From Eledone cirrhosa (lineage: Eukaryota), in NCBI GenBank assembly GCA_964016885.1, contig OZ024760.1, positions 15,066,001 to 15,130,000 of the forward strand: a stretch of DNA of 64,000 nt, read 5' to 3'. The translations under genes and the position numbers were made by a program. Shown one piece after another: positions 316 to 42,072 of this stretch. The notes beneath the pieces are model-generated. The model was not told the DNA's origin. It made no database searches and saw nothing but the letters and a program-made list of their open reading frames with translations. Every line of letters begins with the position of its first letter. Within the stretch, counting starts at the first letter, position 1.

Positions 316-370
<55 letters not shown>

Positions 371-506
371 CAAAGATTAATACGGTTCATTGATTACTCA
401 ATGAATATAGTTTTACAATAGATTAAAAGCACTCTACAAAGAAGTTTTCTGGAGTTATTAATATTATTCAAAATATTAATAAATGAAGACATTCACATAA
501 TTAAAA

Positions 507-577
507 TATGTTTTATTATATATATTTCGGAGGTACTGTGCTGTTTTGTCAGTACGTCCTCGTCAGATAAGATACAT
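507..577 (-). ncRNA. Type I hammerhead ribozyme (family A, left arm)
   Basis: Reverse complement reads ucuuau-CUGACGA-GGAcGUACUG..CAGUACcUCC-GAAA-uauauaUA|auaaaa. Confidence 0.75.
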
Positions 578-678
578 GAATTGATGTATGACATACCTCA
601 ACTGTCTTGATGGTTTAATTTGACTGCCAAGACTGGAATTGAACCATCAAGACAGTTGAGGTATGTCATACATCAATA

Positions 679-750
679 TATGTATTTTATCTGACGAGGA
701 CGTACTGAAAAAACAGCACAGTACCTCCGAAATATATATAATAAAACATA
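679..750 (+). ncRNA. Type I hammerhead ribozyme (family A, right arm)
   Basis: Stem I UUUUAU/AUAAAA; core CUGACGA 691-697; stem II GGAcGUACUG/CAGUACcUCC 698-728; GAAA 729-732; minimal palindromic stem III; AUA cleavage triplet ending at 740. Confidence 0.85.
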
Positions 751-790
751 TATTTTAATTATGTGAATGTCTTCATTTATTAATATTTTG

Positions 791-824
<34 letters not shown>

Positions 825-826
<2 letters not shown>

Positions 827-1017
827 CGAAGGGAATGTAGCAAGGAACCAGGTGGACCATAACGCACCAAAGTACTCAATACTTAGGGTAGTAGAGTGGG
901 TAATAGGAAAAAGTATGACCCCGACGGCTGAGCTCAAGCCGTTTCGACGGCTAATTCAGTCCAGAATTAGCCGTCGAAACGGCTTGAGCTCAGCCGTCGG
1001 GGTTCTACTCGCTCCTA
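825..1017. mobile_element. Foldback element (family B) carrying the 3' half of a hammerhead in each arm
   Basis: Perfect 40-bp arms 918-957/964-1003. GAAACGGCU-ugagcuc-AGCCGUC gives GAAA + stem III + GUC site. Flanked by (TA)n; a second single-arm copy is at 34322-34379. Confidence 0.7.
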
Positions 1018-12219: not shown

Positions 12220-12540
12220 GAAGAAGAGATATTTAATTTGTTGGAAATCCAACAAATATAGATGTTTATAACTGATTCAGAGCACTCGACAGATTTCTGG
12301 AGTAAGTGTTCAATGATATTAAATAAATGGAAACTATATTTATAAAACCATATTTCAAGGGTACCAAAAATTTTGGTAGTCTATCATCAGGTATATTATC
12401 CTTGGTCATGTCAAATATTTATAAAACATTTTGTATTTTATCTGATGATAGCATACCAACATTTTTGGTACCCTTGAAATATATATAATAGAATAAATAT
12501 TGTTTTATAAATATAGTTTCCATTTATTTAATATCATTGT
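12220..12540. mobile_element. Asymmetric foldback element (family A2) with hammerhead at 12434-12495(+) and a partial inverted copy at about 12350-12392(-)
   Basis: Arms share 'aatgatattaaataaatggaaactatatttataaaac'. Core CUGAUGA 12442-12448, GAAA 12476-12479. The outer end matches 41757-41815. Confidence 0.75.
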
Positions 12541-24965: not shown

Positions 24966-25039
<74 letters not shown>

Positions 25040-25282
25040 TAGAAATGGCTTCTACAGGACTTGATCTGTTCTAGCCCTGTAGAAGCCATTTCTATATAAA
25101 AAATTGTTGTATACACTCTACTAATGTATTGAGTACCTGACTTACTGTGGTTACTCCTGATTGAATTCGACACACACACTATATATATATATATATATGT
25201 ATATATATGACTACCCAAGGAATATTCAACTGATAAGGTATGTTTTTCCTTGGCTATGTCAAAATTTATAAAACACTCTTTG

Positions 25283-25345
25283 TATTTTATCTGATGAAAG
25301 CGTACCAAAGTTTTTTGGTACCCTTGAAATATATATAATAGAATA
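25283..25345 (+). ncRNA. Type I hammerhead ribozyme (family A2), best-preserved copy
   Basis: UAUUUUAU-CUGAUGA(25291-25297)-AAGcGUACCAAA..UUUGGUACcCUU-GAAA-uauauaUA|AUAGAAUA. Confidence 0.85.
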
Positions 25346-25539
25346 AATATGGTTTTATAAATATAGTTTCCATTTATTTAATATCATTTTATATACGTAT
25401 ATATGTATTTATATCTGTACATATGTATATGTATGTATATATATTTATATCTGTATATATGCATTTATATCTGTACATATATATGTGTGTGTGTGTGTGT
25501 GTATATATATAATAGTTAAATTACTGTAAATGTGTTGAC

Positions 25540-41720: not shown

Positions 41721-41758
<38 letters not shown>

Positions 41759-41926
41759 TAGAAGGGGTATTTAATTTGTTGGAAGTCCGACAAATATAAA
41801 TGTTTCTAACTGATTTATTCGCACATAACTTTGAATAATCACTAATATATTTCCACTATCCAGTGAATATCGAACCGATAAGGTAAGATTTTCATGAGTA
41901 TGTCTCTATTTATAGAACAAACTTTG

Positions 41927-41990
41927 TATTTTATCTGATGAAAGCGTACCAATGTTGTCTTGGTACCCTAGAAATATATATAATAAAATA
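41927..41990 (+). ncRNA. Type I hammerhead ribozyme (family A2) within element 41757-42034
   Basis: Perfect 8-bp stem I UAUUUUAU/AUAAAAUA; core 41935-41941; stem II AGcGUACCAA/UUGGUACcCU with a mismatched first pair; GAAA 41971-41974. Confidence 0.8.
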
Positions 41991-42029
41991 AATATGGTTT
42001 TATAAATATAGTTTCCATTTATTTAATAT

Positions 42030-42072
<43 letters not shown>

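What the first reader, a model, noticed from the sequence alone, without database searches (positions are those of the whole stretch)
679..750. Covariation between families A and A2 supports a real hammerhead fold with a conserved C-C mismatch
Family A stem II is GGA-c-GUAC-UG/CA-GUAC-c-UCC. Family A2 (25298-25325) is AAG-c-GUAC-CA/UG-GUAC-c-CUU. Several pairs change compensatorily while the C-C internal mismatch, the core and the GAAAUAUAUAUA stem III are kept. Stem I varies AUAGAAUA/AUAAAAUA, preserving pairing. The palindromic AUAU loop III fits the dimeric cleavage known for minimal hammerheads.
Basis: partly seen in the sequence, partly recalled or inferred. Interest (0 to 1): 0.75.

Follow-up and report, generated by a model that had tools for sequence, protein, structure and literature searches.

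The report
Penelope hammerhead with conserved unpaired cytosine
These motifs are hammerhead-ribozyme folds at the ends of a very abundant Penelope-like jumping gene; across its lineages the base pairs swap but stay paired while one cytosine stays unpaired, which likely marks a contact site, though cutting itself is untested and the copies were likely made from uncut RNA.

Summary
Both motifs are type I hammerheads in the pseudo-LTRs of Hydra-clade Penelope-like retrotransposons; ORF-bearing parents were found for family A and for A2. The genome has 72,098 exact core matches with C·C at stem II pair 4, against 2 in the control. Across 19 subfamily representatives (parent RTs down to 42% identical), 13 of 16 pairs change on both sides and 92% of cells pair. 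My own tree-aware test gives two pairs at E<0.05, and lineage branches keep pairing (51 of 65 changes) while single copies do not (47 of 170). The fixed feature is an unpaired C10.4: its partner is mostly C, but A or U in some subfamilies. Corrections: the A twin at 566 is inverted, not tandem, so it cannot be the dimer partner; the stem I variant quoted is a one-sided change within A2. Copies mostly start at a putative transcription start, and only 2 of 70 near the cut site, so the templates were likely uncut. Cleavage is untested. The scan already noted this mismatch on other DNA of this genome (e1-8671138). Verdict: known kind, new variant.

The parts
679..752 (+). Family A type I hammerhead: core 691-697, unpaired C701 opposite C725, GAAA 729-732, palindromic stem/loop III 732-739, predicted cut after A740
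   Evidence: model hit 79.6 bits, (this sequence is in the model)
623..796 (+). Short arm of a family A pseudo-LTR fragment, from the putative transcription start (ACTGCC at 623, preceded by G622) to the short 3' end about 56 nt past the cut site, then (TA)n
   Evidence: start inferred from a TATA box about 30 nt upstream in longer copies (L084, L147, L285, L297)
368..621 (-). Long arm of the same insertion, inverted, ending about 149 nt past its cut site at (TA)n; 461-798 is a 92% palindrome
505..578 (-). Inverted twin hammerhead (core 566-560, C556·C532, predicted cut after 517); antisense to the finding's copy
   Evidence: 72.5 bits
661..666 (+). GTATGT after AG, resembling a 5' splice site upstream of the hammerhead; an intron is not shown
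   Evidence: sequence; GGTAYGTC recurs in A, A3 and A4 but not in B
25210..25388 (+). Family A2 pseudo-LTR fragment (single short arm) with hammerhead 25279-25349, C25301·C25322, predicted cut after 25337
   Evidence: parent element in L061 and L062
12221..12540 (.). A2-type inverted pair: intact hammerhead 12430-12499 (+; U·U at 10.1, A·C at 10.5) and a minus-strand arm whose hammerhead (12337-12402) has a deletion across the cut site
41756..42033 (.). A2-type copy with hammerhead 41923-41994 (+; A·A at 10.1) joined to an inverted long-tail fragment

Best explanation
These motifs are the pseudo-LTR hammerheads of a Hydra-clade Penelope-like retrotransposon lineage; their stems are conserved by compensatory change and one cytosine (C10.4) stays unpaired, likely as a contact site, and the ribozyme is predicted to cut slowly, only as a dimer and probably with help from the element's protein. 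Shown: in full elements the motif lies about 200 nt upstream of the ATG and again at the 3' end. The window copies are short pseudo-LTR fragments inserted in (TA)n. Inferred mechanism: RNA starts at a TATA/initiator promoter 65-85 nt upstream of the core. The RT-endonuclease starts reverse transcription at two sites about 50-60 and 140-150 nt past the cut site, one for each end of a DNA break, which gives inverted long-plus-short pairs. It copies through the uncut hammerhead up to the capped 5' end. Selection on the fold acts in the parent elements, where two sense copies 3.7-3.9 kb apart (or two RNAs held by one protein dimer) could pair through AUAUAUAU. The window copies are relics drifting neutrally.
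For: Parents: A2 follows a 637-aa RT+GIY-YIG frame (L061) and precedes the ATG (L062). A follows RT/EN on the same strand in L358, L341 and L339. ORFs of 749-750 codons flanked by two direct hammerheads occur in L223, L224, L226, L228 and a 748-codon one in L240. Hydra motifs RWR, DKT, CxCx5C, CxxC and CxH are present (against Craig 2021 section 11). Covariation: 92.1% of 304 cells paired, 13 of 16 pairs with double change, 0 of 500 shuffles as high, slid registers 32-49%. RNAalifold finds stem II unprompted and leaves pair 4 open. Tree-aware test on 284 of 290 copies: top 3 of 703 column pairs are proposed pairs, 10.6/11.6 E=0.005 and 10.3/11.3 E=0.045. Internal branches keep pairing in 51 of 65 changes against 47 of 170 on tips. 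C10.4 needs 0 and C11.4 needs 1 parsimony step against a mean of 3.6 per paired stem II column (p about 0.006). Closing the pair would gain about 6 kcal/mol, yet no abundant closed lineage appears in the first 100 listed exceptions. Uncut templates: of 70 family A arms picked by a downstream tail pattern, 33 start at the putative start site, 13 upstream of it, 18 between it and the cut region, 2 within -12..+3 of the cut (about 3 expected from background) and 4 downstream. Inverted pairs are long+short in 49 of 59. The main loop III variant, UAUGUAUA (8, against 121 UAUAUAUA, among 160 descriptor hits), stays self-complementary through G·U. Precedent: Cervera 2014 (dimers, low activity) and Frangieh 2024 (protein-assisted cleavage, unprocessed RNA used, two RT starts).
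Against: No cleavage was measured. Only 2 of 15 tested pairs reach E<0.05, effective sample size is about 28, and no stem I pair is significant; the test is my own approximation, not R-scape. Core and loop III invariance were imposed by my search patterns. Alone, A is predicted to misfold: stem I probability 0.01, with GAAAUAUAUAUA pairing to the 5' strand, and the dimer helix is only -3.2 kcal/mol. Pair 10.1-11.1 is mismatched in 36 of 284 copies, and AUA was the slowest of four triplets tested in one viroid hammerhead (Carbonell 2006, abstract). No conserved partner base for C10.4 was found. A U10.4 variant occurs at two unrelated loci (L379, L382), so C10.4 is not needed to be copied in trans. 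Published Hydra hammerheads (Craig File S2) and other families in this genome have pair 4 closed. The lack of cut-site ends is also what an inactive ribozyme would give.
Confidence: 0.62

Rival explanations
1. The fold is kept mainly as a docking site for the element's RT-endonuclease, not as a cutter; unpaired C10.4 is read by the protein and helps place reverse-transcription starts.
For: Templates are uncut. The short 3' end lies at a median 49-55 nt past the cut site in A, A2/A4, A3 and B. 10.1-11.1 is weak or mismatched and the triplet is AUA. Frangieh 2024 saw cleavage only with protein.
Against: Frangieh 2024 mapped the needed RNA downstream of the hammerhead, and ribozyme mutants still inserted. 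A conserved ACTC..GAGTGC hairpin just past the short end could set the starts instead. More than 72,000 copies match the full catalytic core, as expected if catalysis is selected.
Confidence: 0.2
2. The mismatch is a frozen accident or a simple helix-weakening device in an ordinary PLE hammerhead; any mismatch would do, and C10.4 was just inherited.
For: C·A and C·U lineages exist, and so does a U·C source variant. Only about 19-22 lineages were sampled. Other hammerheads work with pair 4 closed.
Against: C10.4 is the only filled column outside the search pattern that is invariant in all 19 representatives, although it is a CpG cytosine in A, A2 and A4 and C>T is its commonest decay in copies. 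The flanking pairs take three different forms.
Confidence: 0.15
3. The apparent covariation is a by-product of DNA hairpin correction or shared descent, not RNA selection.
For: A versus A2 alone is one contrast, all transitions, with three changed pairs adjacent. The shuffle control ignores relatedness.
Against: G·U intermediates are common (43-45 copies at pairs 1 and 2). Lineage branches and tips behave differently (p=1.6e-12). Hairpin correction would be expected to erase the C·C mismatch.
Confidence: 0.03

Closest known systems
Canonical hammerheads of Hydra-clade PLEs (Craig et al. 2021, PMC8557442; passages, sections 11-12, supplement part 2 of 59 and search hits seen), including Hydra-1_Obim
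   Same: Same retroelement clade (RWR/RWK, DKT, CxCx5C, CxxC, CxH, C-terminal GIY-YIG, (TA)n targets); type I hammerhead near the 3' end; short palindromic stem III; non-G-C first pair of stem II in many; inverted 5'-truncated copies; tail at one end only.
   Different: The listed Hydra stems II show no conserved internal mismatch at pair 4. Their stem III starts AC rather than AUAUAUAU. The distance between the two 3' ends here is about 90-95 nt, against a described tail of 30-40 bp. These lineages are not Hydra-1_Obim itself, whose hammerhead differs.
PLE-associated minimal and small-palindromic-helix-III hammerheads (Cervera and de la Pena 2014, PMC4209133; main text parts 1-2 of 4 and supplement parts 1-2 of 3 read)
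   Same: In pseudo-LTRs; long helix II; thousands of solo truncated copies; opposite-strand pairs 100-700 bp apart; palindromic helix III proposed to act in dimers; covariation between families.
   Different: No extra nucleotide between A9 and 10.1, and no conserved G10.1-C11.1. The unpaired C10.4 is not in their consensus; D. virilis has a one-sided bulge in helix II instead.
Poseidon element PAc of Anolis (Frangieh et al. 2024, PMC11167929; parts 1-2 of 4 read)
   Same: Two reverse-transcription starts downstream of the hammerhead, AT-rich targets, unprocessed RNA as template, cleavage only with protein.
   Different: Different clade; its hammerhead overlaps the start codon, whereas here it lies about 200 nt upstream of the ATG; no conserved mismatch is described.
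Non-LTR retrozymes (Li, Clavereau and Pollet 2026, 10.64898/2026.07.22.740005; part 1 of 5 read)
   Same: Type I hammerheads related to PLE pseudo-LTRs, non-autonomous spread.
   Different: Retrozymes are head-to-tail arrays; these copies are solo or inverted fragments with ORF-bearing parents.

Membership tests
Type I hammerhead ribozyme | Core CUGANGA, GAAA and NUH triplet | tested here: met
   CUGACGA or CUGAUGA, GAAA, AUA; AUA is natural in one viroid hammerhead (abstract)
Type I hammerhead ribozyme | Stem II supported by compensatory change | tested here: met
   8 of 8 counted pairs with double change; 2 pairs at E<0.05 in a tree-aware test
Type I hammerhead ribozyme | Stem I closing the 5' and 3' ends | tested here: met
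   88.6% of cells paired, 5 of 6 pairs with double change, but none significant
Type I hammerhead ribozyme | Stem III, stable or formed in a dimer | tested here: inconclusive
   2 bp and invariant by the search pattern; monomer probability about 0; trans duplex -3.2 kcal/mol
Type I hammerhead ribozyme | G10.1-C11.1 pair (usual, not universal) | tested here: not met
   G-C in 68 of 284 copies, A-U 137, G-U 43, mismatch 36; many published Hydra hammerheads also depart from it
Type I hammerhead ribozyme | Site-specific self-cleavage | not testable with these tools
   needs an in vitro assay
Rfam hammerhead families | Match to a covariance model | tested here: not met
   no hammerhead family among 7 matches at E<=10 on 660-770, nor among the 150 of 293 listed for the window
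Hydra-clade Penelope-like element | Single ORF, RT with C-terminal GIY-YIG, pseudo-LTRs with hammerheads | tested here: met
   Pfam GIY-YIG is only a weak hit, E=0.0045, and none on the 637-aa frame
Hydra-clade Penelope-like element | RWK, DKT, CxCx5C linker, CxxC and CxH motifs | tested here: met
   RWR 37, DKT 120, CNCRDRSKC 601, CDLC 699, CRH 726 in the L223 ORF; similar by eye to Hydra-1_Obim
Hydra-clade Penelope-like element | Insertion into (TA)n | tested here: met
Hydra-clade Penelope-like element | Placement with published Hydra RTs in a tree | not tested
   the tree held no named Hydra reference
Neptune-clade Penelope-like element | CX2-5CxxC linker | tested here: not met
   the linker is CxCx5C; my first reading as Neptune was dropped
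Non-LTR retrozyme | Head-to-tail tandem units each with a hammerhead | tested here: not met
   window copies are solo or inverted; 7 of 10 same-strand pairs in the loci flank an ORF at 3.7-3.9 kb

The most novel reading that the evidence does not exclude
In this Penelope lineage the hammerhead is a protein-gated switch. The element's own RT-endonuclease dimer reads the unpaired C10.4, keeps the ribozyme off in capped RNAs chosen for reverse transcription, and licenses dimeric cleavage only in other transcripts; in the A clade a 5'-UTR intron may also remove the ribozyme from the mRNA.
Probability: 0.15. Interest if true: 0.75.

Novelty: new variant of a known kind. Interest (0 to 1): 0.43.

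Why it matters
What PLE hammerheads do is open: Craig 2021 calls their function unclear, and Frangieh 2024 found them dispensable for insertion in vitro. This lineage offers young full-length elements with uninterrupted ORFs, over 70,000 copies as a record of which RNAs were copied, and one conserved unpaired base amid freely swapping pairs. That base is a precise handle for separating catalysis from protein binding. The class itself is known, so the gain is a testable detail rather than a new system.

Tried and rejected
Rfam did not recognise the motif. I first read the parent as Neptune and dropped that. One search used a structure that was off by one column; one search is the right register. 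Expression and splicing: no RNA holder listed; three contig runs of unknown kind showed no splice-type joint, which says nothing either way. The intron idea stays a lead: the donor-like GGTAYGTC is absent in B, and the acceptor-like CTCCAG is not kept in several subfamilies. The 5'-end mapping was biased towards intact hammerheads, and its A3 part was spoiled by (TA)n in the reference; one search replaced it. A test for arms copied from two different RNAs flagged 7 of 91 pairs, of which only L379 looks convincing. Six of 290 copies (chance hits or stem II deletions) were left out. No tertiary partner for C10.4 was found by eye in stem I. Literature: 'hammerhead + C-C mismatch + stem II' gave 0 papers; some searches gave 1, 3 and 2 listed papers, and none of the parts I saw describes this mismatch. 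Lunse et al. 2017 on dimeric PLE hammerheads was not held and is known to me only as cited in PMC6765202 (passages); it or unread supplement parts could describe the feature.

Full report
Observation. Both motifs are as described. Family A has its core at 691, C701 opposite C725 and a predicted cut after 740; A2 has its core at 25291, C25301 opposite C25322 and a predicted cut after 25337. Five of nine stem II pairs differ on both sides and none on one side (p=0.003 under random placement). The quoted stem I variation is a one-sided change among A2-type copies; A reads AUAAAACA. A model built from 19 representatives finds five intact copies and one broken copy in the window, and six further hits at E 0.15-0.54 that I treat as chance. 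Rfam does not recognise the motif.

Context. The A copy is the short arm of a palindrome (461-798, 92%) whose long arm carries an antisense twin; both arms end in (TA)n. The genome is 3.0 Gb; homologues named from Argonauta and Octopus suggest a cephalopod, which is inference. A2 follows a 637-aa RT plus GIY-YIG frame in L061 and precedes an ATG by about 200 nt in L062. Family A follows RT/EN in L358, L341 and L339, and an inverted A arm precedes an ORF start in L342. Related elements have ORFs of about 742 aa from the first Met, flanked by two direct hammerheads 3.7-3.9 kb apart. Motifs RWR, DKT, CxCx5C, CxxC and CxH match the Hydra clade defined by Craig 2021. RT identity is 56-62% between A and A2 and 42-46% between B1 and the A clade. 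The B1 link rests mainly on L261. D, E and F have no ORF link in my loci.

Covariation. Three stem-I-dependent patterns gave 16,342, 13,960 and 27,596 matches with controls of 0, 67 and 65. I clustered 290 copies from the fetched loci and used 284. On 19 representatives, 92.1% of 304 cells pair and 13 of 16 pairs change on both sides; 0 of 500 shuffles reach the pairing or the score, and slid registers pair at 32-49%. RNAalifold recovers stem II with pair 4 open but does not predict stems I or III. Since shuffles ignore descent, I ran a tree-aware G-test with simulated nulls. The top 3 of 703 column pairs are proposed pairs; two pass E<0.05 (10.6/11.6 and 10.3/11.3), 13 do not, and effective n is about 28. 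Changes to a paired state keep pairing in 51 of 65 cases on internal branches against 47 of 170 on tips (p=1.6e-12). So selection acted on parent elements, and inserted copies decay.

The mismatch. Pair 4 is C·C in 265 of 284 copies, U·C in 8, C·A in 6, G-C in 3, and other in 2. Genome-wide, 72,098 matches have both C's. 4,738 lack C10.4; by my reading of the first 30, 17 are true substitutions (14 T, 2 G, 1 A), 7 are nested second cores, and 6 are chance, deleted or another family. 4,884 have C10.4 with another partner; of the first 30, 8 are a short-stem subfamily with C·A and 2 are true C-G point variants. The listing also shows two further small families, with C·A and C·U. C10.4 needs 0 steps and C11.4 one step on the representative tree, against 3.6 per paired stem II column (p about 0.006). 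The flanking pairs take A-U, G-C and U-A (10.3) and G-C or A-U (10.5). Published Hydra hammerheads and other families here keep pair 4 closed, so the feature is lineage-specific. Against strict need, a U10.4 variant recurs at two unrelated loci.

How copies arose. Longer copies show a TATA box about 30 nt upstream of a TCACT initiator-like site where short copies begin. Of 70 family A arms chosen by a tail pattern downstream of the cut, 33 start at that site, 13 upstream, 18 between it and the cut region, 2 near the cut and 4 downstream (two rows are disturbed by insertions). A G precedes the start in 9 of the 17 arms I counted at the first two start positions (p about 0.001), suggestive of a copied cap, though some G's may come from the partner arm. 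The 3' ends fall at two sites, about 50-60 and 140-150 nt past the cut, and 49 of 59 inverted pairs are one long plus one short. This fits Frangieh 2024: two internal starts, both DNA strands extended, unprocessed RNA as template. It does not show whether the ribozyme ever cuts.

Dimer. Stem III is unstable in the monomer, and the AUAUAUAU trans duplex gives only -3.2 kcal/mol. Family A alone is predicted to misfold (stem I probability 0.01), and a read-through of 461-798 is a -243 kcal/mol hairpin that abolishes the fold. A dimer is therefore plausible only between the two sense copies of a full element or between two RNAs, probably with protein help.

Comparison and verdict. The motif works like, and by sequence and covariation belongs with, the PLE type I hammerheads of Cervera 2014 and Craig 2021; cleavage is the one defining feature untested. 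The unpaired C10.4 was not found in the papers and searches named, but Lunse 2017 was not available and most supplement parts were unread. New variant of a known kind, interest 0.43.

Noticed in passing
L262:6066-7473 (G000:C1:14038500-14046000), minus strand: Tandem array with a 469-bp unit, each unit holding a canonical type I hammerhead with a 4-bp stem II; looks like a non-LTR retrozyme.
   Followed up: partly
L003, L014, L045, L073, L100, L140 and others: Other abundant hammerhead families with fully paired position 4 and different stems III (GAACUU, CCACUGGUA, CCGAUCGGUA); the first has the extra unpaired G after A9.
   Followed up: no
window 740-745 and equivalent sites in loci: AATAAA lies within 25 nt after the cut site in 320 of 347 arms across A, A2/A4, A3, B and others, at variable spacing; possibly the element's poly(A) signal, though the region is AT-rich.
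   Followed up: partly
window 661-666; long arm 596-449 (minus): A splice-donor-like GTATGT upstream and an acceptor-like CTCCAG downstream bracket the hammerhead in A and A3, recalling the 5'-UTR intron of Penelope; not conserved in B and untested.
   Followed up: partly
L379 (G000:C1:17020293-17023341): The two arms of an inverted pair carry different subfamily variants of stem II, each matching another locus, as if copied from two different RNAs.
   Followed up: partly
window 916-1004: An 89-bp GC-rich palindrome next to the A element; related sequence flanks (TA)n in several other loci (for example L007, L028, L084), probably another small mobile element.
   Followed up: no
window 25036-25098: A 63-bp palindrome upstream of the A2 copy, with relatives elsewhere in the window.
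   Followed up: no
L241:2980-3129: A family D hammerhead duplicated directly in tandem with a period of about 54 nt; the second copy has an altered GAAA.
   Followed up: no
L424 and L430: Two further small families with the same loop III and C10.4 facing A or U, one with a very long stem II; parents not sought.
   Followed up: partly
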